Shown: positions 15,301 to 37,308 of the stretch, piece after piece | How positions within the stretch are numbered: the stretch's first letter is position 1 | Layout of the letters: each line of letters opens with the position of its first letter | Made by a program: the position numbers and the translations under genes | NCBI GenBank assembly: GCA_043743635.1 | Contig: JAYTWC010000571.1 | Coordinates: forward strand, 1 to 37,308 | DNA length: 37,308 nucleotides | Reading direction: 5' to 3' | Source of the DNA: Verrucomicrobiota bacterium | GTDB taxonomy: Bacteria > Verrucomicrobiota > Verrucomicrobiia > Opitutales > Opitutaceae | The notes under the pieces: model-generated | What the model was told of the DNA's origin: nothing | Seen by the model: the letters and a program-made list of their open reading frames with translations, nothing else | Database searches by the model: none

Positions 15301-15773
15301 TCCGCTTCATCGAAGAGTCACTCGGTCGAGATCTCCGCAAATACTTCCTCACCGACTTCTACAAGAACCATCTTCAAACCTACAAGAAGCGCCCCATTTA
15401 CTGGCTCTTCCGCAGTCCGAAAGGTGCCTTCGCCGCGCTGGTCTATCTGCACCGGATGACCCGCGACACGCCGAACCTGATTCTCAACCGCTACCTCCGC
15501 GACTACCTGCAAAAACTCCGCGCCCGCCTTGAGCACCTCGTCCACGCCGAAGCCACCGCCGGCACCGCCCGCGAAAAAACCGCAGCGCGCAAAGAGAGCG
15601 ATCAGCTCAAGAAAAACCTCCGCGAATGTGAAGAATGGGAACGCGACGTGTTGTTGCCCCTGGCCCAAAGCCGCCCCGAACTCGACCTCGACGACGGCGT
15701 AAAGGTCAACTACCTCAAACTCGGCGAAGCCCTCTCCCCCATCCCGGGTCTGGCGACGAAGGAGGAGGACTAA
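12297..15773 (+). CDS. pglX: BREX N6-adenine DNA methyltransferase PglX
   Basis: 1158 aa from ATG12297 (MNLSALKTFAP...), internal to track ORF 12198..15773. SAM motif I is IIDPACGSGHML and catalytic motif IV is VVANPPYMGS. The conserved C-terminal tail is DLDDGVKVNYLKLGE. Confidence 0.9.
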   Translation: MNLSALKTFAPAVRLQLMEAVTRKLDFVLTGDTADLRAMSAQRAVLRGEATRNRAGLVERVAYIWFNRLAALRFIDAQGWHPFGARVLTAKTSDETQPELLRLVRSGQLPAELAPHTDPDRLNRLLDGELPSPNPQAEVYRHLVLAACRFYHALLPALFEKLDDETELLLPDDLLTEHSVVHGFRTAIADADCAEVEILGWLYQFYISEKKDQVMARKSAVPTEDIPAVTQLFTPHWIVRYLVENSLGRLWLLNRPQSKLREKMPYYIEGEPEADFLKIGKPEEIKIIDPACGSGHMLTYAFDLLQAIYEEEGYAPSDIAGLILRHNLHGVEICDRAATLAAFALCMKARSCDKRFFSRVAQPQIIALQEVRFEEGELSAYFSALGAQPSTLHPEFTRLLNQFEEAKNFGSLIQPCLTEPEIQRVRSEIENRKSKIVNDADLLVGATHLKVLRVLEQAQALTQRYHVVVANPPYMGSGSMNTGLKTYAETYYARSQSDLFAMFIEANLRLSRSGGYAALITMHSWMFISSFEELRSALVTQHAFLSMIHLGPRAFDSIGGEVVQTTAFVLQTRRPTKRTTVFKRLTKGACEAEKRALFEVEANTYVRPVNLFECVPGKPFAYWASPSLLTAFKKGTALGELGKPRKGLVTLDDRRFTRSWWEVDGCNIALGCKTRNAAKETQKKWFPINKGGGFRRWFGFAEQVINWYRDGEELKSFIVSRYGGGSYTKEIRSEEYYFKPSITWGKINTTAPSFRVSPGGFIMGDAGPCIFIELDLLPVLGLLNSKVSHSVIELLCPTVNAGSGDISKIPVLFAPSRSDHGTVVSEAVTISRADWDNFETSWDFRDQPLLRSGLKGATLETSWRNWEAQSTAAIRRMQELETENNRLFITAYGLNGELSPEVPEEQITLARADARRDMAAFLSYAVGCMMGRYSLDLPGLILADAGATVQDYLAKVPKPTFVPDEDGILPVLDGEWFEDDIVSRFREFLRVTFGDATLNENIRFIEESLGRDLRKYFLTDFYKNHLQTYKKRPIYWLFRSPKGAFAALVYLHRMTRDTPNLILNRYLRDYLQKLRARLEHLVHAEATAGTAREKTAARKESDQLKKNLRECEEWERDVLLPLAQSRPELDLDDGVKVNYLKLGEALSPIPGLATKEED
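15660..15737 (+). repeat. Direct repeat copy A (functional pglX 3' tail) matching 19456-19533
   Basis: Hand alignment gives 70/78 nt identical to 19456-19533, in the same reading frame (LAQSRPELDLDDGVKVNYLKLGEALS vs LAQSRLELDLNDGAKVNNLKLGESLS). Confidence 0.8.
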
Positions 15774-19455: not shown

Positions 19456-19575
19456 TTGGCCCAAAGCCGCCTCGAACTCGACCTCAACGACGGCGCAAAG
19501 GTCAACAATCTCAAACTCGGCGAATCCCTCTCGCATCAACCGTCCAGAGGTAAAAAAACTGATTGGTCATCCTAG
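19456..19575 (+). pseudogene. Relic 3' end of a pglX-type methyltransferase gene (40 codons including stop)
   Basis: Reads LAQSRLELDLNDGAKVNNLKLGESLSHQPSRGKKTDWSS* and is about 90% identical at nt level to 15660-15737. It is immediately preceded by an in-frame TAG (19453-19455). Its stop lies 9 nt before the next gene's start. Confidence 0.75.
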
Positions 19576-25251: not shown

Positions 25252-27409
25252 CCCAATGCTGCCTCCCGTTCCGCCCGAACCTGCATCTGCGGAAGAGACA
25301 ACGCCCCCACCCCCACCGGTCAATCTCGGCCCCTTGGATCGGAAGATTGTCGACGCCTTCCCCGGCTTGGTTGTCCGCAAAGACATCACCAAGGGCCTGA
25401 AACAAAATGCGGTCGTGCCCACGTACGTTCTCGAATATCTGCTGGGCCAGCACTGCGCCACGGACGATGAGGCAACCATCCGCACGGGCCTGGAGTCGGT
25501 AAAACGGATTCTCGCCAAGCACTACGTTCATCGCAACGAAGCGGAATTGACGAAGTCGATCATCAAGGAACGCAGTCGGCACAAAGTCATCGACAAGGTG
25601 ACGGTGGAGCTGAACGACAAGATCGGTATTTATGAGGCGGAGTTTACCAATCTTGGCCTGCGCAAAGTACCCACGCCCGACGATTTCGTCCGCCGCCATC
25701 CTAAACTATTGGTAGGTGGAATCTGGTGTATCACGGAAATCACTTACGAGGTGAACGAGGATGGCAAGGCCAGCCCTTGGCACATCGATAGCCTCAAGCC
25801 GATTCAGGTTTCGAAAGTCGACTACGAGGAATACCTGAAAGCTCGGGCCAAATTTAGCACAGACGAATGGATCGACACGCTCGTACAGAGCCTCGGCTTC
25901 AATCCCGAAATGCTGACTCGCCGGGCAAAGCTACTTCAGCTGTTGCGCTTCGTGCCGTTCTGCGAACGTAACTACAACCTGCTTGAGCTCGGTCCGAAGG
26001 GTACCGGCAAATCTCACGTTTATGCGGAATTTTCTCCACATGGCATGTTAATCTCGGGGTCGGAAGTCACCGCGCCAAAACTTTTTGTCAGCAATTCATC
26101 GGGCAAGATCGGCCTCGTCGGCTTCTGGGATTGCGTGTGCTTCGATGAGTTCGCCGGAAAGGACAAGAAAGTCGACAAGGCCCTTGTCGACATCATGAAA
26201 AACTACATGGCCAACCGGTCATTTTCACGCGGCATCGAGCAGCTCACTGCGGAGGCCTCGATGGTTTTCATGGGCAACACCAAGAAGTCGGTCGCGTACA
26301 TGTTGAAGCACTCACACTTCTTCGAGCAGCTGCCGGACAAATATATCGATTCCGCGTTTCTCGATCGTCTGCATGCGTTCAGCCCTGGCTGGGAAGTCGC
26401 GCCGATCCGCAACGATCTTTTCACGAACGGCTATGGCTTCATCGTCGATTACTTCGCCGAAATTCTGAAACACCAGCGTACAGAAGATTTCACCAGTGCT
26501 TACAAGACGGGTTTTGAAATTACGTCTGAAATCTCCACTCGTGATCAGACCGGCCTTGAGAAGACATTTTCCGGGATGATGAAGATTCTGCATCCTCACG
26601 GTGGTGCCACGGCTGACGAGATCGAAGAACTGCTTTCGTTTTCGATGGAATGCAGACGACGCGTGCGGGAGCACTTGCTGCGCATCGACGACACCTTCAA
26701 GCCACACGACTTCATCTATCGCAGGAAGGATAGTGGCGCGACGAAGACCGTGCTCACGCCCGAGGAAATTCAATATCCGGCCTTCGCAGGAGCCCATCGC
26801 CCCCAACTCGATGGAGAGACAAATGAACCGCTCGCCGAAACCATCGCCAGCGCCACGGCCAACGAACCAATCAGTAAAATTGTGGCCCCTGCCGCCGTCA
26901 TACCCAAAATTGTAGCTACTGTTGGTGCACAGCCTGGGCATATCGTGATTCCGGAGAACACGAAGGGATGGAGCTATCGCCGGATATTCGCGAAACACCT
27001 AGAGGGCGCGCACAAAATCACCGTACGCGATCCCTTCGTTCGTGCATTCTTTCAAGCCCGCAATTTCATGGAGTTTCTCCAGGTCGTGCATGACGTGGTA
27101 CCCGAAGGCGACGAGGTGGAGGTGCATTTGATCACCCAGTCCGACATGGACACATGCGTGAAGCAGGAAGAAAACCTAAACCAATTGGTGCAGAGTTTTA
27201 CCGGCTCCCGTGTCGCATTCTCGTGGGAGTTAGACCACAGCCCCAACTTCCACGCGAGAAGCATTACAACAGACAGCGGCTGGAAAATCATGATCGACCG
27301 TGGTCTCGATATATTTCAACGCTTCGAGACCGGCGCTTTTTCTCTGGAGCAAGCAATGCAGGAAGCGCGGCTTACACGCGGCGCCGAAGTGACGTACGTT
27401 AAGCTTTGA
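25241..27409 (+). CDS. brxL: BREX Lon-like protease/ATPase BrxL
   Basis: 722 aa. It shows the typical BrxL N-terminal region (FPGLVVRKD...VPTYVLEYLLGQ), Walker A (GPKGTGKSH) and Walker B-like (CFDEFAG). It is the last gene of the type 1 BREX order. Confidence 0.9.
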   Translation: MSSDPMLPPVPPEPASAEETTPPPPPVNLGPLDRKIVDAFPGLVVRKDITKGLKQNAVVPTYVLEYLLGQHCATDDEATIRTGLESVKRILAKHYVHRNEAELTKSIIKERSRHKVIDKVTVELNDKIGIYEAEFTNLGLRKVPTPDDFVRRHPKLLVGGIWCITEITYEVNEDGKASPWHIDSLKPIQVSKVDYEEYLKARAKFSTDEWIDTLVQSLGFNPEMLTRRAKLLQLLRFVPFCERNYNLLELGPKGTGKSHVYAEFSPHGMLISGSEVTAPKLFVSNSSGKIGLVGFWDCVCFDEFAGKDKKVDKALVDIMKNYMANRSFSRGIEQLTAEASMVFMGNTKKSVAYMLKHSHFFEQLPDKYIDSAFLDRLHAFSPGWEVAPIRNDLFTNGYGFIVDYFAEILKHQRTEDFTSAYKTGFEITSEISTRDQTGLEKTFSGMMKILHPHGGATADEIEELLSFSMECRRRVREHLLRIDDTFKPHDFIYRRKDSGATKTVLTPEEIQYPAFAGAHRPQLDGETNEPLAETIASATANEPISKIVAPAAVIPKIVATVGAQPGHIVIPENTKGWSYRRIFAKHLEGAHKITVRDPFVRAFFQARNFMEFLQVVHDVVPEGDEVEVHLITQSDMDTCVKQEENLNQLVQSFTGSRVAFSWELDHSPNFHARSITTDSGWKIMIDRGLDIFQRFETGAFSLEQAMQEARLTRGAEVTYVKL

Positions 27410-27430
27410 TAACGTGAAGGCGCCGCGCCA

Positions 27431-27949
27431 ATGACACGTGAGCAATTCCGGGCAATCTATCCCCAACTAATTGACTGGATCGAACAAACGCTAGTTGATT
27501 ACTCGACCAAGACCCAGTCAGTGGTGTCGCTCCGGTTTCGACGACTGCCGCAATACTTCAGCAAAGAGTTCCTTGCGTCGGCAAAGGTTGTGCCGGTCGA
27601 AAATGTACCAATGCCGCCGCTCTCCAAATTCGGCGCAACGGATTTCGACGCATTTGAACAAATGGAGGCGGCCGGTATCACCTACCTCGATACCTTTTTC
27701 GTCAACCAACTTTACGCAACCGACGAGTCCCTGCATTTCCACGAGCTGGTTCACGTGGTGCAATGGAGCCTGCTCGGCCCCGAACGATTCCTCGCCGCCT
27801 ATGCCGATGGATTGGAGCACTTCGGCTACCGCAACAGCCCGCTAGAAACAATGGCCTACGACGCACAGGCTTGGTTTGAAGATAATCCGGCCCCGTTCAA
27901 TGCCGAACAGTCCGTTCAAAATCAATTACAACACCTAAATCTGATCTGA
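27431..27949 (+). CDS. Hypothetical protein with HExxH zincin-like motif
   Basis: 172 aa starting 21 nt after brxL. LHFHELVHVVQW is the only recognisable motif. Confidence 0.55.
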   Translation: MTREQFRAIYPQLIDWIEQTLVDYSTKTQSVVSLRFRRLPQYFSKEFLASAKVVPVENVPMPPLSKFGATDFDAFEQMEAAGITYLDTFFVNQLYATDESLHFHELVHVVQWSLLGPERFLAAYADGLEHFGYRNSPLETMAYDAQAWFEDNPAPFNAEQSVQNQLQHLNLI

Positions 27950-27956
27950 ACCATAT

Positions 27957-28796
27957 ATGCACTGTAGACGTTACTTCACCGCCCTCGTCGTTATAGCCGT
28001 CGGCTACCTTAGCCAGATCGCACAGGCCGATGTTCCTGAACTTGCGAAAATCAAGGCCGCAGCGGAGGCCGGCAATCCAGAAGCCCAATACGTCTTCGCA
28101 AAATCTTTTGGCGCCGGAGGCTCGGATTGGAAACGATGGATGGGTGCGGCGGCCGCACAGGGATATGGCCCCGCCGAAGACGATCTGGCCTGGACCTCAA
28201 ATTGGGCAATTTTCGCAACGTCACATTCAGATCCAAAGACAAAAGCATATGTCGTCAAAAATAACGGTGCACAAATGCGCCAAGCATTGATCCTCGCCAG
28301 TAGTGCAGCCGATAAGGGGTTTCATCACTCTAGGCTGCTCCTGGCCTACGCGTATAAAGAGGGATACATGGTGACCGTCGATCGAGTGGAAGCGTACAAA
28401 TGGGTACTGCTCGCAGGCGGCGACGAACTCCTTGCGGGCATATCAACCAGTTCGGTCAAAAACGAACTCGTCAAGTCGATGTCGATGACCGAAGTGAAGG
28501 AAGGCGAAGCTCGCGCAGAAAACTATCGCCCAGGTGAAACTGCGATTCTGATCCGAAATGCCATGATCGTTCCCAGACTGAAACTCGCCGGAATTGCATC
28601 CAGCGGCGGCGAACGCGTAGCGATTCTCAATGGAACGAAGATTTCCTCCGGCCAGAACGCACAATTAAGAATCGATGGCCTGACGGTGGAGATACACTGC
28701 GTCAGCATCGATGACAAGGAGGCCACCGTCACGCTCCCACCTGACGATACGCCAATCACGCTTCGAACTGGCAGCATGCGAGGCATCTCTCAATAA
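27957..28796 (+). CDS. Secreted Sel1-like (TPR-family) repeat protein
   Basis: 279 aa with an N-terminal signal-peptide-like segment (FTALVVIAVGYLSQIAQA/D). Sel1-type repeats are present (AAEAGNPEAQYVFAKSF; AAAQGYGPAEDDLAW; AADKGFHHSRLLLAYAY..G; EAYKWVLLA). There is a C-terminal beta-rich domain. Confidence 0.65.
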   Translation: MHCRRYFTALVVIAVGYLSQIAQADVPELAKIKAAAEAGNPEAQYVFAKSFGAGGSDWKRWMGAAAAQGYGPAEDDLAWTSNWAIFATSHSDPKTKAYVVKNNGAQMRQALILASSAADKGFHHSRLLLAYAYKEGYMVTVDRVEAYKWVLLAGGDELLAGISTSSVKNELVKSMSMTEVKEGEARAENYRPGETAILIRNAMIVPRLKLAGIASSGGERVAILNGTKISSGQNAQLRIDGLTVEIHCVSIDDKEATVTLPPDDTPITLRTGSMRGISQ

Positions 28797-28814
28797 CTTT
28801 CAGCCACTCCTAAA

Positions 28815-29330
28815 ATGCCTCCCATCCTCATTTTCGTCATCATAATCGCTTTTGTACTCGTGGCCGTTGTTGCCGTGCTGAAGGCAAAACTCGGCTCGAC
28901 CGACGACAACAAGGGCGACGGCAGCGCCTATGAATTGAGAGGCCCGATCCTGACACCGGCGGAACGTTCGTTCATCGGTGTATTGGAAAACTCACTACCT
29001 GACGGCATCAGCTTGTTGGCCAAAGTGCGTCTCGGCGACATCTTCAAACCCCGCAGAGGCCTCTCTCCTGCCCTCCGCACTCGCGCCGGCAATAAGATCA
29101 ACCAAAAGCACGTGGACTTTTTGCTCGTACGCACGACCGACGTCACGCCGGTAGCAGGAATCGAACTTGATGATCGCTCGCACGAACGAGCCGACAGAAA
29201 ACAACGCGACACCTTCGTCGATGAAGTCTTCCGCGCCTGCAATCTACCGCTCCTCCACGTCCCCGCGAAAGCCACATATAGCGTCACCGAACTACGCAGC
29301 CAGATCGCTGGAGTGATTCACCGCCAATAA
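28815..29330 (+). CDS. DUF2726-like membrane-anchored protein (restriction-endonuclease-like fold)
   Basis: 171 aa with an N-terminal TM helix (ILIFVIIIAFVLVAVVAVL). The pattern ILTPAERSF...LAKVRLGDIF...QKHVDFLLV...PVAGIELDDRSHE...RDTFVD is typical of DUF2726. Confidence 0.65.
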   Translation: MPPILIFVIIIAFVLVAVVAVLKAKLGSTDDNKGDGSAYELRGPILTPAERSFIGVLENSLPDGISLLAKVRLGDIFKPRRGLSPALRTRAGNKINQKHVDFLLVRTTDVTPVAGIELDDRSHERADRKQRDTFVDEVFRACNLPLLHVPAKATYSVTELRSQIAGVIHRQ

Positions 29331-29626
29331 TTCGCTTAGCCGTTTCCCAACCCTCGCGCATTTATCGTGAGCGGGCAAGACGGCAGCACGACACACGCCC
29401 GTGAAATCACATTCCCTCAACCCCAGACTTGACCAATCAAGTCGCAGCCACCTCCCTCGCCATAACCATCCACTTTCGCCAATAGTGTTCCATCTTTTAC
29501 CCAAGTCGCCCCGGACTCAGGCACAGTTCCGCCTCGCCTGCCCGACGCATATTGCTGCCACCCATAACGCTGGGTTCTAAAAACCATACGGAAGCGGAAA
29601 CATTGTTACTATATTTTCGGATTCTA

Positions 29627-29645
29627 GTCGGTCATCTATTGTCCG
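29627..29645. promoter_or_regulatory. Palindromic operator candidate, site 1: TCGGTCA-TCTAT-TGTCCGA
   Basis: 7-5-7 inverted repeat with one mismatch, 56 nt upstream of ATG29702 at the head of the small-ORF/WYL-regulator unit. The same motif occurs at 33273-33291 and 34691-34709. Confidence 0.55.
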
Positions 29646-29701
29646 ACCAATGGAGGTATTCTTAGGGCGTTTCAAAACCCACCCACCATCGTCCTCCTTC
29701 C

Positions 29702-29920
29702 ATGAACCGAACGCCCACCGCCGCCAAAATCACATCGGGTCGCATTGTCGATATCTATGATCGGTGCGGAAATTACCTGCACCGCGTCAATGTCAGCCCA
29801 CGTCAGGCAATCGCTGCCGTGGTCACACCGGATACGCTCACCGTCAGCCTCGTTGATGGACACGTGCAGGTGTTTGCACTGAGCAAAAATACTTCGCCCG
29901 TACTGCGCTACACTCGGTGA
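29702..29920 (+). CDS. Small hypothetical protein (72 aa) upstream of the WYL regulator
   Basis: ORF with GC3-rich codon usage similar to its neighbours. No motif recognised, and whether it is coding is uncertain. Confidence 0.35.
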   Translation: MNRTPTAAKITSGRIVDIYDRCGNYLHRVNVSPRQAIAAVVTPDTLTVSLVDGHVQVFALSKNTSPVLRYTR

Positions 29921-30000
29921 AAACGGCACGCTCAGGCAGCATCGTGAGTGTTCATGCTTGGCGGTGGTTCCTGTCCCAGCTAGGCTCGCTCCACCTCCAG

Positions 30001-30993
30001 ATGCCCCCCATCGCCAAGCTTTCACGCCCTCCGCTGGCCCGGATGCTCAAGATCGACGAATTGCTCCAGTCGGGAAAATATCCCAACTGCTCCTCCGTCG
30101 CCAAACTGCTGGAAATCTCCGTCAAAACCGCGCAGCGCGACATTGAGTTCATGCGCGACCAGATGAACCGACCGATCGAATACGACCAGCCCCATCGCGG
30201 TTATTATTACACAGAGAAAGTTTCGGGTTTCCCCACCGTTCAAGTGAGCGAGGGCGAAGTGCTGGCGCTCCTCGTCGCCGGCAAGGTCTTGGAGCAATAC
30301 CAAGGCACACCCTATGAAAAACAGCTCACCGCCGCCTTCGAGAAACTGACCGGCGCACTCGATCAGACGATCAGTTTCACGCCCGGCGCAGGACTGGCAG
30401 CCGTGTCGTTTGGTAGTGTCGGCCAGGCCGAGATGGATCTCACGACTTATGACGCGTTAAGCAAAGCCGTACTCGGCCGACACGAGATCGAGTTCGACTA
30501 TCGGAAGCCCGGTTCCAAAAAGCCCGAGCGCCGCCGCGTGCAGCCGTACCACCTAGCCTACCGCGACAACCTCTGCTACGTCATCGGCCAGGATGTCACC
30601 AAAAAAGCACTACGCCAGTTCGCCCTGCCGCGCATGAGCAACGTGAGCCTGCGCAAGGAAACCTTCACGGTACCGGCGGATTTTTCAGCCGAGGAGTATT
30701 TCAAAGGCGCGTTCGGCGCTCAAGGCGGCACCGGCGATTATCACGTGCGCATCCGCTTCGACGCCCAAGCCGCGTTCTATATTAAGGAACGTCGGTGGCA
30801 TCCGACTCAGAAAATAAAAGAACTGCGCGGAGGCGCGATCGAACTATCCCTCCACCTCAGCGATCTCGAAGAAGTCGAACGCTGGATACTGAGCTGGGGA
30901 GTGCATGCAGAGGTGATCGACCCCGCCGAATTTTCTGCGCAGATACTAAAAACTGTACATCAACTATATCTAAAATTATCACAGTCTCCATGA
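30001..30993 (+). CDS. HTH-WYL-WCX transcriptional regulator (BrxR/CapW/PafBC-like)
   Basis: Track ORF starts at GTG29917, but ATG30001 (MPPIAKLSRPPLARMLKIDELLQSGKYPN) fits the family N-terminus. The HTH is SSVAKLLEISVKTAQRDIEFMRD. The WYL core is RRVQPYHLAYRDNLCYVIGQD...LRQFALPRMSNVSL. The C-terminal WCX-like region is RWHPTQKI...WILSWGVHAEVIDP. Confidence 0.8.
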   Translation: MPPIAKLSRPPLARMLKIDELLQSGKYPNCSSVAKLLEISVKTAQRDIEFMRDQMNRPIEYDQPHRGYYYTEKVSGFPTVQVSEGEVLALLVAGKVLEQYQGTPYEKQLTAAFEKLTGALDQTISFTPGAGLAAVSFGSVGQAEMDLTTYDALSKAVLGRHEIEFDYRKPGSKKPERRRVQPYHLAYRDNLCYVIGQDVTKKALRQFALPRMSNVSLRKETFTVPADFSAEEYFKGAFGAQGGTGDYHVRIRFDAQAAFYIKERRWHPTQKIKELRGGAIELSLHLSDLEEVERWILSWGVHAEVIDPAEFSAQILKTVHQLYLKLSQSP

Positions 30994-31598
30994 AATCACT
31001 GCCCATCGATAAGAAAGCAAAGTCGCAATGGGAACGAGCACAACATGCATACGATCATTATAGACTTTACGTGACCAATAAAAATGGCAATGCGCCCTTT
31101 GCCTTATCATTTATCGACTTTATTTACGTAAAGAATTTCAAAGGCGGTTCTGCCACAATAGCTGAGCCACGTGAATCTTTTGATAAGAAGAAGATTGTTT
31201 ATGAAAAAAAATTAGAGGCGTTCGCTTCTTTCACAAAAAAGAAATGGGCTGCAATGAATGATTCCGAGCATAAATCCTTGAGCGAGCAGATAGTTTCCTT
31301 TGCAGCTATTCCAAGCCATGATGAATCACATATATCTGGTTTCGGTGAGTCATTTTCATCGGCATTGCTGCATTTTCATTTTCCTAATCATGCTCCTATT
31401 CTTGATAAGCGAGCCCTCAATGGAGCAAGAATCGATGGAATGATAGTAGATGCATATAAAAACGTCAAAAATATGCTTAGCCTATACCCTCGTTTATTAG
31501 ACTTTTTTTATGAACGCTTGAAAGAAAACAAAGAAAGTACTGTGCGGGTAATTGATCAGGAATTATTTATTCAACCCCTTAGGGCACCTCTTAAATAA
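30990..31598 (+). CDS. Orphan hypothetical protein, strongly low-GC
   Basis: 202 aa from ATG30990, internal to track ORF 30795..31598, with ATGA overlap to the WYL gene stop. Hand counts over 31021-31260 give about 33-42% GC, against about 55-60% in flanking genes. The protein is K/F/N-rich and no family is recognised. Confidence 0.6.
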   Translation: MKSLPIDKKAKSQWERAQHAYDHYRLYVTNKNGNAPFALSFIDFIYVKNFKGGSATIAEPRESFDKKKIVYEKKLEAFASFTKKKWAAMNDSEHKSLSEQIVSFAAIPSHDESHISGFGESFSSALLHFHFPNHAPILDKRALNGARIDGMIVDAYKNVKNMLSLYPRLLDFFYERLKENKESTVRVIDQELFIQPLRAPLK

Positions 31599-31617
31599 GT
31601 ATATTGTATTTGCACAC

Positions 31618-32394
31618 TCAGTACCCCAACTCCATCCTCGCCATCATTTCCTCCGACAGGCCTGCCGCTTTCATCACAGCGATGCAGGCCTTTATATTGT
31701 AGGCGACACGGATGAAGGTCGCGCTGAATTTGTCAGTATCATAAATCATATATTGTGCTCGCGGGTCCGGTTGGTGAATCGGTGTGCGCGGGTTTCCGAC
31801 GCTCCCTGGATTTAGCGCGTAACGGAAGTTCGGTCCCAGCCTGAACGTGCAGGTTTTCGGTTGTGCAGGGATAAACCGATCTCCGCCTTCCTGCCAGAAA
31901 CCAGCCGCGTGCGTGTGCCCGTAAAAGGCGGTACGCGTGGGTTGCCTCCGAAACGAAGCCGCCGCCTCATTCGGCGTGTCGAGATAGCCCCACTTCTCCG
32001 GCTGATGAAAACTGCCATGCGTACACGCCACGCCCCATGCCTGAGCGGTGTAGGGCAGTTGACGCAGCCAATCCCTCGAATCCTTCGTCGATCGGCGCTT
32101 CGTGCAGTCCATTCCCGAAATCGCCGTCGGCGCAGTTTCCTCAGGAGGCATGGCAACGGGCTGCAACGCCCAAACATCATGGTTGCCTTTGACGGTGACC
32201 GCCCCAATCGACCGAACCAGTTGAACACATTCCTCCGGCTGCGCGCCGTAGCCCACGATATCACCGAGGCAGAAGAAGCCGTCCGCACCGCGTCGCCGGG
32301 CGTCTTTCAACACGGCTTCGAATGCGTGGAGATTCGCGTGAATGTCGGAGAGCACGGCGATCTTCATAATATTACGGGATGATTGCTGAAGCAT
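31618..32394 (-). CDS. Metallophosphoesterase (YfcE/MJ0936-like), paralog 1
   Basis: Motifs are LSDIH, GDIVGYG, GNHD, THGS and GHTH. An alternative start is ATG at 32367 (MKIAVLSDIH). It lies 4 nt downstream of the LRR gene stop. It is a paralog of the partial CDS at 36657. Confidence 0.8.
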   Translation of the reverse strand: MLQQSSRNIMKIAVLSDIHANLHAFEAVLKDARRRGADGFFCLGDIVGYGAQPEECVQLVRSIGAVTVKGNHDVWALQPVAMPPEETAPTAISGMDCTKRRSTKDSRDWLRQLPYTAQAWGVACTHGSFHQPEKWGYLDTPNEAAASFRRQPTRTAFYGHTHAAGFWQEGGDRFIPAQPKTCTFRLGPNFRYALNPGSVGNPRTPIHQPDPRAQYMIYDTDKFSATFIRVAYNIKACIAVMKAAGLSEEMMARMELGY

Positions 32395-32398
32395 CCTC

Positions 32399-33250
32399 TC
32401 AGGCTTCCTCCGCAGAATCGTGCTCCGTCAGCTCTTGGTAAAAGGGCGAACTGTGCAGGTTGCGGTTCCAGACCAGAAGCAGTCCGCGCTCAGCGCAGAC
32501 ATCCGAGAAGCGACGGGCCTCGGCGGCGGGCACGCAAAAATCGCAACACGACAATCCACGGAGTGATGGCATTTCCAGGACAAACCATGGAAGCGCCTGA
32601 AGCGGGTTGCCGTCCGCATGGAGAAAGCGCAGGTGGCCCAGGTTGATGAGCCCGCCGGGAAGTTCGCGCAACAGATTGTTATCCACGCGCAATTCGCGTA
32701 ACTGGCGCAAACCGCCAAACGAACCATGGAGCTTACTCAGACGATTATTTGAGAGCGTGAGGTGAGTAAGCCGACGGCACAGGCCGAGGCTCGATGGAAT
32801 CGCAGGCAGCTCATTGCCCAACGTGAGATGGCGCAGTTGAGTGAGGCGGCCGATACTGAACGGTACGGATTCTAGGTTCCCACCAGCGACGATGAGTGTC
32901 TTGAGCTGCGCCAACTCTCCGATGCGTTCGGAAATATTCCGCACCTGAGTAAAACTGAACTCCAGCATTTCCAATTGCTGAAGCGCGTCGATGGCATCCG
33001 GGATTTTTCCGATCCGGTTGCCCATGAAATAGACCTTTCTCAATTCAGTGCAGGAAAAGATCTCGTTCGGTATCTGTTGAAACCGGTTCATATTCGCGTC
33101 CAGCGAGGTAATGCCTGTTGTGCGCGGCAGAGCGAAAGGCCACTGCTCAAGATCGCGACAAGCAACATCGAGTCGTCCTTTTTCCGAATCGAAACAGTGG
33201 TCGAAATCGAGAGGCGCATTGCCCAGTGGTGATTCGTTTTCATTTTGCAT
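32399..33250 (-). CDS. Leucine-rich repeat (LRR) protein
   Basis: 283 aa with about 9 tandem repeats of roughly 23 aa, of the LxxLxLxxNxLxxLP type (e.g. LTHLTLSNNRLSKLHGSFGGLRQLRELRVDNNLLRELPGGL). Confidence 0.8.
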   Translation of the reverse strand: MQNENESPLGNAPLDFDHCFDSEKGRLDVACRDLEQWPFALPRTTGITSLDANMNRFQQIPNEIFSCTELRKVYFMGNRIGKIPDAIDALQQLEMLEFSFTQVRNISERIGELAQLKTLIVAGGNLESVPFSIGRLTQLRHLTLGNELPAIPSSLGLCRRLTHLTLSNNRLSKLHGSFGGLRQLRELRVDNNLLRELPGGLINLGHLRFLHADGNPLQALPWFVLEMPSLRGLSCCDFCVPAAEARRFSDVCAERGLLLVWNRNLHSSPFYQELTEHDSAEEA

Positions 33251-33272
33251 GAAATCACCCTATCAAACGGCA

Positions 33273-33291
33273 TCGGACATTCGCTGTCCGA
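33273..33291. promoter_or_regulatory. Palindromic operator candidate, site 2: TCGGACA-TTCGC-TGTCCGA (followed by GTGAA)
   Basis: Perfect 7-5-7 inverted repeat in the 89-bp gap between the 442-aa gene and the LRR gene. It lies 22 nt from the LRR start codon. Confidence 0.55.
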
Positions 33292-33339
33292 GTGAACATG
33301 TTGCTCACGTTTTCATGGTCTGTGACGGTTACTCACGAG

Positions 33340-34668
33340 TTAGCCCACAAACCGCCACCAGAGCATCCGCTCACCGAGACAGGCGTTGATCCATTTCTCG
33401 AAATTGATCCCGGGAGGGAATATCTTGGCGATCTGTTTAATATGCTCTAACGGAATCTCGACATTACGCGGCCCTTTGATGTCGAGGATTTGCTTCTCTT
33501 CATCACCCATCGGACCGTTAAAAATCGCGAGCGTAGCCCGTACGGGCGCCATGACCCGGTAGAATGCAATCCGCCCACCCATGGCCGCACGGACGCATTT
33601 AATTGCACCAAGACAATTCAACATTTCATCGCCTTCCATCATCAATTTCTCCGGTGTGGCTATATACTCGATTTTGTCCGTACCTGGCACAGGCGCTGGC
33701 GGAAATACCAACTCTTTCAAATAGGGGCGCAGCCATTCCATAGGAGCCCGTGACGGCTTGCACCATTGAAGCGTTTTCGCGGTCTCAATATCGATAAATT
33801 TGGCATCTAGAAATTCGTTTATTTTCCAAAGGTGCCCGTGAAGCATTCTATTCATAACTCTCTTTGACTGCTTCAAACAACGAGGATCAAACCACTGCGC
33901 GGTCATGGGGTGAGTCAGGAAGATGATCAACGTGGCCAGTTCTCCTCCCGCCCGCTTCAAAATCGGGCCAAGAACCGGATCGCTCAGAAAAGTGAGGATG
34001 CGCTTGATCGCCATACCTGCACAAGATGTTCTGGCTGGCTTCAAAAGCCGCTCCAGCGCGTTGAGTGTGGATTGCTCCGGCGAAAAACCTAACCAGCCAA
34101 GAATATCGCGCCTTCGTCTGCCAATCTGCTGGCGCACCTCCGGCCAGTTTTTGCAGCGAACCCCAGGAAACTCCCAGTGCCGGGCAAGCGCGGTGGCGAG
34201 CAAGGGATTATGCTCAACCAAATCCATCGCGGCGGGTGCCTGTACAAACAATTCCACTGCGGAGAAAAAATCGCATTCAAGACGACCTGCGCATCGGAGA
34301 AGCGAAACAGGCAACATCGCCAACAGCTGCCGCCAGTGATGGCATCCATAGGCAAACCTGCGCTCGGGGTTTTCCATGACCCAGGCCATGCAAACCTGCC
34401 CAGTGCTTCGCTCGTAGAACGCATTCCCGTGAGGGATAAAAATGATACCGTTCCGAAACACGTATGAATCACCCCAAAAACCAGCAACCAGGAGGTCTCG
34501 GAAAGCGCAGCGTATCGACTGCCAGTCGTTTTTCGCCTGACGGCGCTCGGCAATCACTTCCGGCCAGACACGAAAGCGAAACAGCTCCTCGTCGTCGCTG
34601 TAATAGAGCCAGCCGTCACGAAAACCAAAACGAGGATGCGCTACCGCATGAGTGACATTTTTCAGCAT
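33340..34668 (-). CDS. Hypothetical protein, C-terminal region weakly PcfJ-like
   Basis: 442 aa. The C-terminal segment ATPEKLMMEGDEMLNCLGAIKCVRAAMGGRIAFYRV...RATLAIF...ILDIKGPRN resembles the PcfJ-like domain pattern, with H replaced by N. This is an assignment by eye only. Confidence 0.5.
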   Translation of the reverse strand: MLKNVTHAVAHPRFGFRDGWLYYSDDEELFRFRVWPEVIAERRQAKNDWQSIRCAFRDLLVAGFWGDSYVFRNGIIFIPHGNAFYERSTGQVCMAWVMENPERRFAYGCHHWRQLLAMLPVSLLRCAGRLECDFFSAVELFVQAPAAMDLVEHNPLLATALARHWEFPGVRCKNWPEVRQQIGRRRRDILGWLGFSPEQSTLNALERLLKPARTSCAGMAIKRILTFLSDPVLGPILKRAGGELATLIIFLTHPMTAQWFDPRCLKQSKRVMNRMLHGHLWKINEFLDAKFIDIETAKTLQWCKPSRAPMEWLRPYLKELVFPPAPVPGTDKIEYIATPEKLMMEGDEMLNCLGAIKCVRAAMGGRIAFYRVMAPVRATLAIFNGPMGDEEKQILDIKGPRNVEIPLEHIKQIAKIFPPGINFEKWINACLGERMLWWRFVG

Positions 34669-34690
34669 ACCCCCATGGTATTACTAGGCC

Positions 34691-34709
34691 TCGGACAACT
34701 GTTGTCCGA
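34691..34709. promoter_or_regulatory. Palindromic operator candidate, site 3: TCGGACA-ACTGT-TGTCCGA (followed by GTGAA)
   Basis: Perfect 7-5-7 inverted repeat centred in the 64-bp divergent intergenic region. It lies 22 nt from the 442-aa gene ATG and 23 nt from the DUF2779 ATG. Confidence 0.6.
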
Positions 34710-34732
34710 GTGAATGCAGTATTCTCCTCCCC

Positions 34733-36652
34733 ATGAAAAAGCCTTCGCCCTACCTCACCAAGTCCGACTTCAAGGCCTGTTTGGATTGCCGAACTAAGCT
34801 GTACTACCGCAAATACCGGTACGCCAGTTCGCTCGATGATGACGACTACATGCGTTTCCTCGCTGACGGTGGCTTCATGGTCGAAACAGTCGCAAAGGCT
34901 AAATATCCGTCGGGTGTCGATCTCGCCGACGAACGCGATCCACAAAAGGCATTTGCCGAGACAAAGCGGCGCATTGAAGCTGGCGATTGCGTGCTGTTCG
35001 AGGCTGCCGCGATTGCTGGAAAATACTATGTGCGGACAGATATATTAAAACGAGAAGGTCGTGTGCTACACCTGATCGAGGTGAAGTCATCGTCGCTCGG
35101 CGAAGAAGAGGAGGACGTGATGTCACCGTTTCTCACTAAGAAAGGCGAAGTCGCCAGTAAATGGTATCCGTACCTGACGGATGTGTCCTTTCAAACCCAT
35201 GTTCTGCGGCTAGCGTTTCCGGAATTTGAAGTGCGTCCGCAACTTTGCGTCATCGACAAAACCCAGCGCGTAACCGCAGCCGAAACCTTGGCTCACTTCA
35301 GCCTGCAACGTGATGCCGGCAACCCCAAGTCACGACCCGAGGTCAGCTATTCTGGCGATTTGAAAGATTTATTGGAGGCCAAGGTCGTCTGCTTCCATCC
35401 AGTTGAACACGAGGTGAGCTTACTGATGCCCGAGGTAACAGCCCGAGCCGAGGAATTGGCTGAATTGATCGCGCCCGATGGCACAACGACACGCGCCAAA
35501 GAAGATATTGCCGACAAATACCGGACATGCCGCGCATGCGAATATCGTCTTCACGACGATCCAAAAGACGGATTTCACGAATGCTGGCATCAACTGGCTG
35601 ACGCCAAACCCCACATACTCGAACTCTATCAGATTGGACGGATCGGTGGCGCCAAAGTGATCGATCCGGTCCCAGCGTTGCTGAAAAGAGGTAAGGCCTC
35701 ACTCCTAGATCTGGAAGCGTTCGAGTTAGGCAAGGAAGGGAACTTGCAACAGCGCCGACTGCTCCAGTGGCAGCATTCCAAAGATGGCGGCTCCGAGCAT
35801 CTGCCGACCGAACTGATCGCTGAGCTAAAATCCCACGAGACAAACCCAGGATGGCCGCTCCACTTCATGGATTTTGAAGCCTGCAACATCGCACTTCCTC
35901 ATCACGCCGGTTTGAAGCCGTACGAGCGGGTTGCCTTCCAATGGAGTGTTCACACCGTCAACCGCGATGGCTCGCTAGCTCATGCCGAATGGTTAAACAC
36001 AAAGAAGGATTTCCCGAATTTCGCCTTTGCGCAAACGCTCCGTGCGCAGATTAAAGACTCTGGCACGGTGTACGTGTGGTCGCCTTACGAAAAATCCACG
36101 CTCAGCCGTGTGTTGATCCAGATCGGCGAGTGGATTCACCGTGATTGCGAAGAGGCGGTGCGCGTTTCCGGCCTGCCCACACGAGCTGCACTGATGGACC
36201 TCGCCCAGTGGATTGACCAACTGCTCGGGCCAGAGGACGTCGACGGGAAACGGAACCACTCAACGCGAATTCGTGATCTGCACGACTTAGCCCGCAGTTA
36301 CTATTTCCATCCACGGATGGCCGGCCGTACATCCATCAAGGTGGTATTGCCCGCCATCTGGGAGTCCGATGCCGCGATCAGAAATCACCCGTGGTTTAAG
36401 AAATACCTAAAACTCGATCTCAATGGTAAACCACTCGACCCCTACAAGACGCTGCCGCCGTTGCCAGTCGAAGATGGAGAAGACGACGTCGTCCGTGAAG
36501 GCTCTGGCGCGGTTCGCGTTTATCAGGATCTAATTTTCACCGACACATCCGAACGCGACACCGAGAGTCGGCGCAGGCTTCTGCTTCAATACTGCGAACT
36601 GGATACCGCGGCCATGGTCATGATCTGGATGCATTGGAAAGCAGGAAAATAG
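34733..36652 (+). CDS. DUF2779 protein (N-terminal PD-(D/E)xK nuclease plus C-terminal RNase H-like/DEDD-like exonuclease module)
   Basis: 639 aa. The N-terminus is LTKSDFKACLDCRTKLYY. The nuclease core is D...LHLIEVKSS. The hallmark DUF2779 block is HFMDFEACNIALPHHAGLKPYERVAFQWSVH. Confidence 0.75.
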   Translation: MKKPSPYLTKSDFKACLDCRTKLYYRKYRYASSLDDDDYMRFLADGGFMVETVAKAKYPSGVDLADERDPQKAFAETKRRIEAGDCVLFEAAAIAGKYYVRTDILKREGRVLHLIEVKSSSLGEEEEDVMSPFLTKKGEVASKWYPYLTDVSFQTHVLRLAFPEFEVRPQLCVIDKTQRVTAAETLAHFSLQRDAGNPKSRPEVSYSGDLKDLLEAKVVCFHPVEHEVSLLMPEVTARAEELAELIAPDGTTTRAKEDIADKYRTCRACEYRLHDDPKDGFHECWHQLADAKPHILELYQIGRIGGAKVIDPVPALLKRGKASLLDLEAFELGKEGNLQQRRLLQWQHSKDGGSEHLPTELIAELKSHETNPGWPLHFMDFEACNIALPHHAGLKPYERVAFQWSVHTVNRDGSLAHAEWLNTKKDFPNFAFAQTLRAQIKDSGTVYVWSPYEKSTLSRVLIQIGEWIHRDCEEAVRVSGLPTRAALMDLAQWIDQLLGPEDVDGKRNHSTRIRDLHDLARSYYFHPRMAGRTSIKVVLPAIWESDAAIRNHPWFKKYLKLDLNGKPLDPYKTLPPLPVEDGEDDVVREGSGAVRVYQDLIFTDTSERDTESRRRLLLQYCELDTAAMVMIWMHWKAGK

Positions 36653-36656
36653 ACCC

Positions 36657-37308
36657 ATGCACAGACAAAGAGAGCTCAGAGCGCCTGATCAAAAAACTGT
36701 GCCCGCCAGAATCGCTGTCCTGTCGGACATTCATTCCAATCTGGACGCACTCAAAGCCGTGCTCCGGGACGCACGTCAGCGCGGAGTGGAAGCGTATCTC
36801 TGCTTGGGCGATATTGTGGGGTTCGGCCCAAAGCCAGAGGCATGCGTCCGGCTTATTCGTGCCACCGGCATGCCCACGATCCTTGGCAACCATGACGAAT
36901 GGGCGGTGTCGGCTGTTGGCAGGCAGGCAACGCCTTCGGCTGGGGCGGATTTCAAGGGTTTCAAAGACCCACTCTCGCCGCTCCACGCCGCATCCCGCGA
37001 ATGGCTGCGCACCCGGCCTCATCTTTTCGAGTCATGGGGGATGTCAGCGGCGCACAGTTCTTTCGCTTGTCCCGAAAAATGGAATTACCTCATCACACGC
37101 CAAGCGGCCATCGACTCCTTCCTTCAACAACCGACTGATATCGCCTTTTTCGGCCATACTCACACCCAGGGTTTTTGGGATGAGTCCAGTTCTTCATTCA
37201 CCGCGCCCACCGATTCGACTGAGTTCGCCCTGTGTCCCAATCGGCGTTACGCAATCAATCCCGGCAGTGTCGGCAACCCCCTTGATGATTCAGCGTTAGA
37301 GGCCTGTT
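36657..37308 (+). CDS. Metallophosphoesterase (YfcE/MJ0936-like), paralog 2, 3'-truncated by window end
   Basis: It is not in the ORF track because it has no stop within the window. My translation from ATG36657 is MHRQRELRAPDQKTVPARIAVLSDIHSNLDALKAVLRDARQRGVEAYLCLGDIVGFG...GNHDEW...FFGHTHTQGFW...YAINPGSVGNP. It starts 4 nt after the DUF2779 stop and is collinear with the 31618..32394 protein. Confidence 0.8.
   Translation, partial: MHRQRELRAPDQKTVPARIAVLSDIHSNLDALKAVLRDARQRGVEAYLCLGDIVGFGPKPEACVRLIRATGMPTILGNHDEWAVSAVGRQATPSAGADFKGFKDPLSPLHAASREWLRTRPHLFESWGMSAAHSSFACPEKWNYLITRQAAIDSFLQQPTDIAFFGHTHTQGFWDESSSSFTAPTDSTEFALCPNRRYAINPGSVGNPLDDSALEAC

What the first reader, a model, noticed from the sequence alone, without database searches (positions are those of the whole stretch)
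31618..37308. Mirror-image divergent cluster [PcfJ-like? -> LRR -> MPE] <-> [DUF2779 nuclease -> MPE paralog]: candidate undescribed system
Two operons diverge from a 64-bp region carrying the shared palindrome, and each ends in a paralogous YfcE/MJ0936-type metallophosphoesterase. The two MPEs are collinear, with identical motif order LSDIH/GDIVG.G/GNHD/GHTH/NPGSVGNP. One arm encodes a DUF2779 protein, which has a PD-(D/E)xK core (LIEVKSS) and the DFE...QWSVH exonuclease-like block. The other arm encodes an LRR protein, a typical ligand or protein-sensing scaffold, and a 442-aa protein with a PcfJ-like C-terminus. I do not know this combination as a named system. It sits next to BREX and a WYL regulator, the typical context of phage-defence genes. 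Possible roles are a sensor (LRR), nucleic-acid effectors (DUF2779, MPE) or nucleotide-signal turnover (MPE). All of these roles are speculative.
Basis: partly seen in the sequence, partly recalled or inferred. Interest (0 to 1): 0.85.

Follow-up and report, generated by a model that had tools for sequence, protein, structure and literature searches.

The report
Co-regulated nuclease and phosphoesterase gene modules
The five genes are real, but they form three separable gene modules that share one unusual promoter, probably switched on by the neighbouring WYL-type DNA-damage/invader sensor, rather than one fixed five-gene machine; what the modules do is still unknown.

Summary
All five genes, their domains, the two paralogous metallophosphoesterases (MPEs) and the 21-bp palindrome are confirmed. 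A survey of about 30 related loci shows that the five-gene "mirror" layout is not conserved. What recurs is a small MPE clade paired with one of three partners: an LRR protein, a PcfJ-like protein, or the DUF2779 nuclease (Cas4-like plus DEDD exonuclease). All 11 MPE contexts examined had one of these partners. The left arm PcfJ-like→LRR→MPE recurs once, and MPE relics and an IS-split LRR show gene flux.

The main new finding is a shared promoter: tcGGACA-N5-TGTCC, 12 nt, TAnnnT, then usually a start codon 6-8 nt later, with no -35 element. It heads ORF442, LRR–MPE-A, DUF2779–MPE-B, the next operon (MBL-fold hydrolase plus PD-(D/E)xK-like protein) and the adjacent WYL/WCX regulator's own operon. 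It does not occur in the BREX part of the window. It recurs in front of the same gene families in other Verrucomicrobia (27 instances against about 3 expected).

The WYL protein resembles the activators PafBC and DriD far more than BrxR or CapW, and the promoter layout matches theirs. The best reading is an ssDNA-inducible WYL-activator regulon of modular nucleic-acid-processing genes in a defence island. No match to a known defence system was found.

The parts
29630..29662 (+). Hybrid promoter of the regulator operon: operator core GGTCA-N5-TGTCC at 29630-29644, a 12-nt spacer, and the -10 element TATTCT at 29657-29662.
   Evidence: The same arrangement precedes the orthologous small-ORF+WYL operon in L013 (12-nt spacer) and L028 (11-nt spacer).
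29702..29920 (+). 72-aa ORF, the first gene of the regulator operon.
   Evidence: Conserved upstream of WYL orthologues in L013, L028 and L029 (50-58% identity).
29944..30993 (+). WYL/WCX transcription factor, the presumed regulator of the modules.
   Evidence: Pfam WYL and WCX. A profile of the orthologues searched against PDB sequences gave PafBC 1.5e-22, DriD 5e-20, CapW 2e-5 and BrxR >=4e-3. Orthologues of 60-69% identity sit next to the same modules in six other loci.
30990..31598 (+). 202-aa gene overlapping the end of the WYL gene. It has low G+C (0.378) and occupies the position held by an OGG-like gene (PF21790) in the orthologous operons of L013 and L029.
   Evidence: (OGG-like, E 0.012, below the cut-off).
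31618..32394 (-). MPE-A, a metallophosphoesterase of clade A with all the metal-binding motifs present.
32399..33250 (-). Cytoplasmic LRR protein, separated from MPE-A by a 4-nt gap.
   Evidence: Homologues (50-62% identity) lie directly upstream of clade-A MPEs in L029, L031 and L032.
33257..33289 (-). Hybrid promoter of LRR–MPE-A: a perfect GGACA-N5-TGTCC core at 33275-33289, a 12-nt spacer, the -10 element TAGGGT, then 6 nt to the ATG.
   Evidence: Promoters of the same type precede the LRR genes in L029, L031 and L032.
33340..34668 (-). ORF442, a divergent full-length PcfJ-like protein: an N-terminal beta domain, a helical middle and a C-terminal PcfJ domain.
34675..34725 (.). Bidirectional hybrid promoter. 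The palindrome lies at 34690-34710 (core 34693-34707). A -10 element sits 12 nt away on each side: TATTCT at 34720-34725 towards DUF2779, and TACCAT (minus strand, 34675-34680) towards ORF442. The start codons follow 7 nt and 6 nt later.
   Evidence: The canonical sigma-70 scan found no promoter here.
34733..36652 (+). DUF2779 protein: a Cas4-like PD-(D/E)xK nuclease with a Cys cluster, followed by an RNase H-like DEDD 3'-5' exonuclease domain.
   Evidence: Invariant residues are D103, E116, K118; C266, C269, C284; D380, E382; Y620, D624. Literature: PMC3985635 and PMC13621843.
36657..37308 (+). MPE-B, a metallophosphoesterase of clade B, 4 nt after DUF2779. The window end truncates it; the complete gene ends at 37391 on contig L001.

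Best explanation
The region holds three transcription units: ORF442; LRR–MPE-A; and DUF2779–MPE-B. They belong to one regulon together with the neighbouring 72-aa/WYL/202-aa operon and the next operon beyond the window (a possible small upstream ORF, then an MBL-fold hydrolase and a PD-(D/E)xK-like protein).

Each unit is headed by the same hybrid promoter. The palindromic operator tcGGACA-N5-TGTCCga sits where a -35 element would be. Exactly 12 nt downstream lies a TAnnnT -10 element, and the start codon usually follows 6-8 nt later, so the mRNAs are probably leaderless.

Inferred mechanism: the adjacent homodimeric WYL/WCX factor, a PafBC/DriD-type activator, binds ssDNA produced by DNA damage or by an invading or replicating element. 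It then occupies the operator, helps RNA polymerase use these promoters that lack a -35 element, and switches on its own operon and the modules.

The products form a modular nucleic-acid-processing response. DUF2779 is a dual nuclease (Cas4-like plus DEDD exonuclease). A dedicated MPE clade always pairs with a variable partner (LRR, PcfJ-like or DUF2779), which probably targets or controls the MPE.

Shown here: the genes and domains, the promoter architecture and its recurrence, the modular co-occurrence, and the WYL protein's similarity to PafBC and DriD. Inferred: that the WYL protein is the factor binding the operator, that it activates rather than represses, that ssDNA is the signal, that the mRNAs are leaderless, and all biochemical roles.
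For: Promoter. There are four operator sites (five promoters) in the window plus its extension, all intergenic and all correctly oriented. Across 328 kb of related loci there are 27 operator-plus-(-10) instances against 2.9 expected, and 23 of the 27 have a 12-nt spacer. These reduce to 22 unique sequences with the consensus cTCGGaCAgCnaTTGTCCgAc-N9-TAnnnT, and 15 of the 22 have a start codon 5-9 nt after the -10. No canonical -35/-10 promoter was found in these spacers.

The same promoter precedes PcfJ-like genes (L005, L006, L007, L009, L010, L012, L013, L014), VWA genes (L006, L012, L013), LRR genes (L029, L031, L032), an MPE gene (L028), DUF2779 (L018, and the WYL-DUF2779 operon in L028) and the WYL operon itself (L013, L028).

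Regulator. WYL orthologues of 60-69% identity lie beside the modules in L005, L007, L013, L019, L028 and L029. The profile of these orthologues hits PafBC at 1.5e-22 and DriD at 5e-20, against CapW at 2e-5 and BrxR at >=4e-3. Published PafBC promoters read tGTCgg(N10)tA(N3)T with a -26 element and no -35 (PMC8635444). DriD binds a pseudo-palindrome over the -35 position at a fixed distance from the -10 (PMC13004042).

Modularity. The MPE clade sits with LRR, PcfJ-like or DUF2779 in 11 of 11 contexts.
Against: There are no expression or binding data. The transcription start sites, and whether the factor activates or represses, are inferred from position alone. An operator that overlaps the promoter is also what a repressor would use.

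The paralogous module PcfJ486–172aa–MPE3, just beyond the window, lacks the motif. So do the DUF2779 loci L020, L022 and L024. I could not scan whole genomes, so I do not know whether recA or uvr-type genes carry the motif, that is, whether this is a general damage regulon or an island-specific circuit.

Many of the loci come from related Verrucomicrobia, and some are near-duplicates of one another. The number of independent observations is therefore smaller than the raw counts. The biochemical function of the MPE, PcfJ-like and LRR proteins is unknown.
Confidence: 0.6

Rival explanations
1. The operator and regulator are the same, but the WYL protein acts as a repressor (like BrxR or CapW). 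It sits on the promoters of otherwise constitutive defence genes and is released on infection.
For: The operator overlaps the core promoter and is centred in a 64-bp bidirectional spacer. WYL repressors of defence islands are well documented (PMC9122601). The locus is in a defence island.
Against: The protein is much closer to the activators PafBC and DriD than to CapW or BrxR. The promoters lack any -35 element, and the operator-to-(-10) distance is fixed at 12 nt. That is the layout of activator-dependent PafBC and DriD promoters.
Confidence: 0.2
2. One reading: all five genes form one obligate anti-phage system, with an LRR sensor and DUF2779/MPE effectors.
For: The genes share a promoter type and sit in a defence island. 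They match no known system. The left arm PcfJ-like→LRR→MPE recurs in L032.
Against: The five-gene layout occurs only in this organism. The modules occur separately elsewhere (L006, L013, L029, L031, L034). L027 and L032 come from the same metagenome sample and carry DUF2779 and PcfJ-like→LRR→MPE on separate contigs; in L027, DUF2779 has other neighbours. Six DUF2779 loci have no MPE of this clade (none detected in the fetched flanks). MPE relics and an IS-split LRR are tolerated.
Confidence: 0.12
3. The genes are cargo of an integrated mobile element and serve its own DNA processing, establishment or anti-defence, rather than host defence or repair.
For: Close DUF2779 relatives sit beside relaxase/NikA and integrase genes (L020, L021, L022). 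A more distant relative sits on a conjugative plasmid next to an annotated zincin-like metallopeptidase gene (L025). The PcfJ fold is shared with proteins of large phages, and the family is named after a gene of plasmid pCF10 (my recollection). A TraG-like gene neighbours LRR–MPE in L031. Transposases lie nearby in L029.
Against: The 21-kb stretch around the cluster that I could see holds no integrase, relaxase or tRNA gene. No relatives were found on viral contigs, and none on plasmids for ORF442. Control by a PafBC/DriD-like host-type regulator fits an inducible cellular response.
Confidence: 0.12
4. The genes are unrelated and juxtaposed by chance, and the palindrome is incidental.
For: Defence islands accumulate unrelated genes.
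Against: The promoter recurs far above expectation (27 against 2.9), and the MPE is paired with the same partners in 11 of 11 contexts.
Confidence: 0.03

Closest known systems
DriD (Caulobacter) and PafBC (mycobacteria): WYL-domain activators of SOS-independent DNA-damage regulons
   Same: The domain set is WYL plus WCX, and these are the best PDB sequence matches. The operator lies over the -35 position at a fixed distance from a -10 element, and the promoters lack a -35. The half-site TGTCC followed by 12 nt and TAnnnT is close to the PafBC motif tGTCgg(N10)tA(N3)T. The regulator's own operon carries a site.
   Different: The phylum is different (Verrucomicrobia). The operator is a 15-bp perfect palindrome, as for the homodimeric DriD but with a different sequence. 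The target genes seen here are island-borne modules (PcfJ-like, LRR, MPE, DUF2779, MBL-fold, VWA, HD/REase-ARP), not recA, didA or similar. Activation by ssDNA is untested.
BrxR and CapW: WYL regulators of defence islands
   Same: A WYL transcription factor lies next to BREX in a defence island and has a palindromic operator.
   Different: The sequence relationship is weak (CapW 2e-5, BrxR >=4e-3). The gene lies downstream of brxL, not at the head of BREX. No operator was found in the BREX part of the window.
DdaA of Moraxellaceae: a WYL activator controlling both DNA-damage and anti-phage genes (PMC12392091)
   Same: The concept is the same: one WYL activator turns on both repair-type and defence-type genes under DNA stress.
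   Different: No orthology was tested. The target genes and the motif are different.
DUF2779 (PF11074) family
   Same: The protein is a full member, with Cas4-like and RNase H-like exonuclease domains and intact catalytic residues (PMC3985635, PMC13621843).
   Different: Here it is coupled to an MPE and driven by the WYL-type promoter. The family's function is unknown everywhere.
PcfJ-like proteins (PF14284) of conjugative plasmids and large phages
   Same: ORF442 shares the C-terminal domain and the overall fold.
   Different: ORF442 itself scores below the Pfam threshold. It belongs to a chromosomal clade paired with an MPE. No function is known for any member.
3RQZ and ApaH-type calcineurin-like phosphoesterases
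   Same: All the metal-binding motifs are present. The best solved match is 3RQZ (E 3e-36), then the S. pneumoniae entry 3QFM (which I recall as SapH; E 1e-12). The PHROG 'NinI-like Ser/Thr phosphatase' family matches at E 8e-14.
   Different: This is a distinct small clade (about 14 close members), defined by its gene partners. Its substrate is unknown.

Membership tests
DUF2779 (PF11074) | Pfam score above the gathering cut-off. | tested here: met
   82.6 bits against a cut-off of 23.3.
DUF2779 (PF11074) | N-terminal Cas4-like PD-(D/E)xK triad plus a C-terminal DEDD-type exonuclease motif. | tested here: met
   D103/E116/K118, C266/C269/C284, D380/E382 and Y620/D624 are invariant across 12 homologues, including a plasmid protein of 31% identity.
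Calcineurin-like metallophosphoesterase (Metallophos_2) | Pfam score above the cut-off, and the DxH / GD / GNH(D/E) / H / GHxH motifs. | tested here: met
   70.1 and 58.9 bits against a cut-off of 27. The motifs can be read directly from the sequences.
YfcE subfamily (TIGR00040) or ApaH (TIGR00668) | NCBIfam score above the curated cut-off. | tested here: not met
   29.6 bits against 56.25 for YfcE, and 17 bits against 222.85 for ApaH.
PcfJ-like (PF14284) | Pfam score above the gathering cut-off for ORF442 itself. | tested here: not met
   No hit even at E<=1.
PcfJ-like (PF14284) | Homology to proteins that pass the cut-off, and a shared fold. | tested here: met
   The paralogue scores 30.2 bits, P0003 32.1, P0010 37.7 and P0015 26.5 (cut-off 25). 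50 of 60 wider family members hit PF14284 at E <= 0.001. Foldseek gives probability 1.0 to phage PcfJ-like proteins.
LRR proteins | Multiple LRR Pfam models above the cut-off. | tested here: met
   LRR_4 74 bits, LRR_14 64.7 bits, LRR_8 60.9 bits.
PafBC/DriD-type WYL activator regulon | The regulator has WYL and WCX domains and is closest to PafBC or DriD. | tested here: met
PafBC/DriD-type WYL activator regulon | Target promoters have the operator over the -35 position at a fixed distance from a -10 element, and no -35 element. | tested here: met
   compared with PMC8635444 and PMC13004042. This is computational only.
PafBC/DriD-type WYL activator regulon | ssDNA binding to the WYL domain activates transcription, and the regulon is induced by DNA damage. 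| not testable with these tools
   This needs EMSA, in vitro transcription and RNA-seq.
BREX | The five proteins match BREX components. | tested here: not met
   PADLOC gave no BREX hits for them. The BREX genes lie at about 5472-27409.
Any catalogued defence system (PADLOC-DB 2.0) | A significant match to a system model. | tested here: not met
   The only hit among the five genes was MPE-A to PDC-S10 at E 1e-3, 16 bits. Among the neighbouring proteins only the WYL regulator matched PADLOC models (CRISPR-associated WYL signalling models), and the 333-aa protein hit Cas4 marginally at E 0.0027.

The most novel reading that the evidence does not exclude
A previously undescribed, ssDNA-induced modular immune or repair system. 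A dedicated metallophosphoesterase is the constant catalytic core, and it is directed by interchangeable partners: an LRR ligand sensor, a PcfJ-like protein, or a Cas4–DEDD nuclease. All are wired to one DriD/PafBC-like activator through leaderless promoters that lack a -35 element. If true, this would also give the first functional context for the large PcfJ-like and DUF2779 families.
Probability: 0.25. Interest if true: 0.8.

Novelty: new variant of a known kind. Interest (0 to 1): 0.6.

Why it matters
WYL-domain activators such as PafBC, DriD and DdaA are emerging as alternatives to the SOS response, and as switches for defence. I found no paper describing one in Verrucomicrobia among the titles my literature searches returned.

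This locus offers a predicted operator, a predicted promoter architecture and a set of target modules, and each can be tested directly. It also ties three families of unknown function to a specific metallophosphoesterase clade and to a nucleic-acid-stress signal. The three families are PcfJ-like (about 4,900 cluster representatives), DUF2779 (quasi-essential in the minimal cell JCVI-syn3.0) and a cytoplasmic LRR protein. That narrows the experiments needed to find out what they do.

Tried and rejected
- **PADLOC** on the five genes and ten neighbours gave no system match for the module proteins; only the WYL regulator hit PADLOC's CRISPR-associated WYL models.
- **PHROGs** gave only generic phosphatase and LRR families.
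- **Solved structures for ORF442:** the PDB sequence search found nothing meaningful, and Foldseek against the PDB found nothing at E<=1 despite a good model (pLDDT 82.6).
- **DUF2779 against PDB sequences:** no hit.
- **Plasmid collection:** nothing for ORF442. DUF2779 is present but distant.
- **Phage collection and viral contigs:** no close relatives of the PcfJ-like clade or of DUF2779.
- **Family size:** the first word-index search suggested only 16 homologues of ORF442. The exhaustive HMMER search showed this was a sensitivity artefact: 4,945 representatives at E <= 0.001.
- **Canonical sigma-70 and terminator scan:** nothing above background.
- **Rfam and tRNA scans** of the window: nothing.
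- **Promoter of the paralogous module** PcfJ486–172aa–MPE3: I looked for the operator or another palindromic promoter in front of it and found none.
- **TerY-P-like triad:** I considered a vWA/kinase/phosphatase analogy for the VWA→PcfJ-like→MPE loci. I dropped it because nothing in the PcfJ-like protein resembles a kinase.
- **MPE-B origin:** I considered that MPE-B travelled with DUF2779. Instead, MPE-B and MPE3 share 82.6% nucleotide identity over the coding region only, which points to a within-genome duplication or gene conversion.
Full report
**1. What is there**

- MPE-A, 31618-32394(-), 258 aa
- LRR protein, 32399-33250(-), 283 aa
- ORF442, 33340-34668(-), 442 aa
- a 64-bp spacer, 34669-34732
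- DUF2779 protein, 34733-36652(+), 639 aa
- MPE-B, from 36657(+), cut by the window end

Pfam confirms Metallophos_2 for both MPEs, several LRR models, and DUF2779. The two MPEs are 49% identical (E 2e-66). The spacer holds the perfect palindrome CTCGGACAAC-T-GTTGTCCGAG at 34690-34710. Upstream lie a type-1 BREX system with an embedded ABC-3C module and a GmrSD gene, then a DUF2726 gene, then a WYL/WCX gene.

**2. Extending the window**

ORF442 lies on a 96.8-kb metagenomic scaffold. The 21.3-kb stretch of it fetched as L001 is 100% identical to window 23340-37308. On that scaffold MPE-B is complete (244 aa, ending at 37391). The following genes come next on the same strand:
- an MBL-fold hydrolase (419 aa)
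- a 333-aa protein with a PD-(D/E)xK-like D…EVK motif and weak, sub-threshold PD-(D/E)xK/Cas4 hits
- a 236-aa protein
- an IstB/DnaA-like ATPase fragment
- a second module, PcfJ-like (486 aa) → 172 aa → MPE3
- a second WYL/WCX gene

MPE3 and MPE-B share 82.6% nucleotide identity over 579 bp, restricted to the coding region.

**3. The individual proteins**

*DUF2779.* The literature predicts a Cas4-like PD-(D/E)xK nuclease fused to an RNase H-like 3'-5' exonuclease (PMC3985635, PMC13621843). The catalytic residues are invariant here: D103/E116/K118, three Cys, D380/E382 and Y620/D624.

*MPE.* The closest solved structure is the uncharacterised 3RQZ (E 3e-36), then the S. pneumoniae entry 3QFM, which I recall as SapH. 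It does not reach the YfcE or ApaH cut-offs.

*ORF442.* It has no Pfam hit of its own. Its paralogue and several homologues pass the PF14284 (PcfJ) cut-off. An AlphaFold model (pLDDT 82.6) matches phage "PcfJ-like" proteins over its full length (Foldseek probability 1.0). Nothing in the PDB matches it. An exhaustive profile search finds 4,945 cluster representatives at E <= 0.001 (765 at E <= 1e-30), and 50 of 60 sampled members hit PF14284. Residues E345, C352, R377, T379 and N402 are invariant across that sample. The family is therefore large, and its function is unknown.

*Known defence systems.* None of the five proteins matches a PADLOC model, apart from a marginal hit of MPE-A to PDC-S10. 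Among ten neighbouring proteins only the WYL regulator matched PADLOC models, those for CRISPR-associated WYL signalling.

**4. Neighbourhood survey**

I fetched about 30 related loci and screened them with tblastn and HMMs. The close MPE relatives form two clades, A and B, with about 14 close members in the protein search. The arrangements found were:

| Arrangement | Loci |
|---|---|
| PcfJ-like→LRR→MPE | window, L032 |
| LRR→MPE | L029 (LRR split by an IS), L031 |
| PcfJ-like→MPE | L006, L013, L034/L035 |
| PcfJ-like→172 aa→MPE3 | L001 extension |
| MPE within two genes of DUF2779 | window, L027, L028 |

So the MPE has one of the three partners in 11 of 11 contexts. The flux runs the other way too:
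- Several PcfJ-like genes are followed only by a 25-45-aa MPE stub (L005, L007, L009, L010, L012).
- Six DUF2779 loci have no MPE of this clade in the fetched flanks. Some sit beside relaxase and integrase genes, or on a conjugative plasmid.
- DUF2779 is adjacent to a PcfJ-like gene three times, each time in a different orientation (window, L018, L024).

The five-gene mirror layout appears only in this organism. The genes are linked, but as interchangeable modules.

**5. The shared promoter**

Searching for the palindrome in the other loci revealed a common core, GGACA-N5-TGTCC. There are 35 sites in 328 kb against about 10 expected. When each site is oriented towards its gene, a fixed architecture appears: tcGGACA-N5-TGTCCga, then 12 nt, then TAnnnT, then usually 6-8 nt to an ATG or GTG.
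- 27 operator-plus-(-10) instances were found against 2.9 expected, and 23 of them have a spacer of exactly 12 nt.
- These reduce to 22 unique sequences, and 15 of those have a start codon 5-9 nt after the -10.
- There is no -35 element, and the canonical sigma-70 scan finds nothing in these spacers.

In the window and its extension the promoter occurs at five places (the coordinates give the first base of the operator core):
- 29630(+), heading the 72-aa / WYL / 202-aa operon
- 33275(-), heading LRR–MPE-A
- 34693, in both directions, heading ORF442 and DUF2779–MPE-B
- 37503(+), heading the MBL-fold operon, possibly via a small upstream ORF

It does not occur in the BREX part of the window, 1-29000. 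Elsewhere it precedes PcfJ-like, VWA, LRR, MPE and DUF2779 genes and the WYL operon itself.

**6. The regulator**

Orthologues of the window's WYL protein (60-69% identity) accompany the modules in six other loci. A profile of these orthologues, searched against PDB sequences, ranks the hits as follows:
- PafBC, 1.5e-22
- DriD, 5e-20
- PafB/PafC, 5e-14
- CapW, 2e-5
- BrxR, 4e-3 to 0.6

PafBC promoters read tGTCgg(N10)tA(N3)T, with a -26 element and no -35; the mechanism is called "sigma adaptation" (PMC8635444). DriD is a homodimer that binds a pseudo-palindrome over the missing -35, at a fixed distance from the -10 (PMC13004042). The promoters found here have the same layout. A WYL activator that controls both damage-response and defence genes is also on record (DdaA, PMC12392091).

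**7. Interpretation**

The best reading is a DriD/PafBC-like, probably ssDNA-triggered, autoregulated regulon. Its targets are modular nucleic-acid-processing genes sitting in a defence island.

Shown: the genes, the domains, the promoter architecture and its recurrence, the modular co-occurrence, and the regulator's affinities.

Inferred: which factor binds the operator, whether it activates or represses, the signal, leaderless translation, and all biochemistry.

Rivals, each dealt with in its own section: a BrxR-like repressor; one obligate five-gene system; mobile-element cargo; and chance.

Weak points:
- There are no expression data.
- The paralogous PcfJ486 module lacks the motif.
- The sampled loci are phylogenetically related, and some are near-duplicates of one another.
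- I could not scan whole genomes for the motif.

**8. Novelty**

The kind of circuit, a WYL activator regulon, is known. The operator, the phylum and the target modules (an MPE clade with LRR, PcfJ-like or DUF2779 partners) did not turn up in my literature searches. I rate it a new variant of a known kind, with interest 0.6. The more novel reading is an MPE-centred modular immune or repair system, at probability about 0.25.

Noticed in passing
window 15661-15736 and 19457-19532: A 76-bp direct repeat (92% identity) brackets the ABC-3C/DUF3732 genes, which sit between pglX and the rest of BREX. The first copy lies inside the 3' end of pglX. This suggests the ABC-3C module was inserted into the BREX operon as a cassette.
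   Followed up: no
L001 129-174, 3191-3236 and 3934-3979 (= 44495, 41433 and 40690 in extended window numbering; outside the window): A repeat of about 40 bp, TAAGTGCATAGCCAAAAT…GG..CTTGGTTTTGCGT, starts exactly at the TAA stop codons of three genes (the 236-aa gene, the IstB-like gene and MPE3). It may be a terminator, a REP-like element or a cassette boundary.
   Followed up: partly
window 30990-31598: The 202-aa gene, which overlaps the end of the WYL gene and is presumably co-transcribed with it, has a G+C of 0.378, against 0.53-0.58 for its neighbours. It occupies the position held by an OGG-like gene (PF21790) in the orthologous operons of L013 and L029, and has only a sub-threshold OGG-like hit (E 0.012). 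It looks like a recent replacement.
   Followed up: partly
L029 6865-7575 and 9744-9977: In a 5.16-Mb genome, the LRR gene upstream of the MPE is split by an rve-family IS element. The MPE and the convergent small-ORF / WYL / OGG operon keep the same synteny as in the window.
   Followed up: yes
L005 11296-11427, L007 11262-11520, L009 2304-2420, L010 3154-3285, L012 11290-11560: Decayed N-terminal stubs of the MPE gene (25-45 aa, some with degenerate SDIH motifs or early stop codons) remain downstream of intact PcfJ-like genes.
   Followed up: yes
window 29702-29920, and L001 2882-3073 (= 41596-41787 in extended numbering): A small ORF (72 aa) is conserved upstream of the WYL orthologues. A weakly similar 64-aa ORF with an internal repeat (…IYDAxTGSxKRS…) precedes the second PcfJ-like module (pairwise E 0.003).
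   Followed up: partly
window 25241-27409: BrxL carries a C-terminal MIT_C / phospholipase D-like domain (PF16565, E 7e-34) in addition to its Lon-like ATPase.
   Followed up: no
window 32-928: There is a third metallophosphoesterase gene at the start of the window. It is only about 18-23% identical to MPE-A and MPE-B, so it does not belong to their clade.
   Followed up: partly
L022 10233-10685: A partial second copy of DUF2779 (HMM E 8e-58) lies just downstream of the full-length DUF2779 gene, in an integrase- and TIR-containing island.
   Followed up: no
L006 7369-8751, L012 8537-9919, L013 3623-5002, L009 3-848: A 460-aa VWA-domain gene with its own copy of the hybrid promoter sits directly upstream of PcfJ-like(→MPE) in four loci. 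HD plus REase-ARP genes, followed in L005 and L007 by the WYL gene, form the divergent partner operon in L005, L007, L010 and L014.
   Followed up: partly
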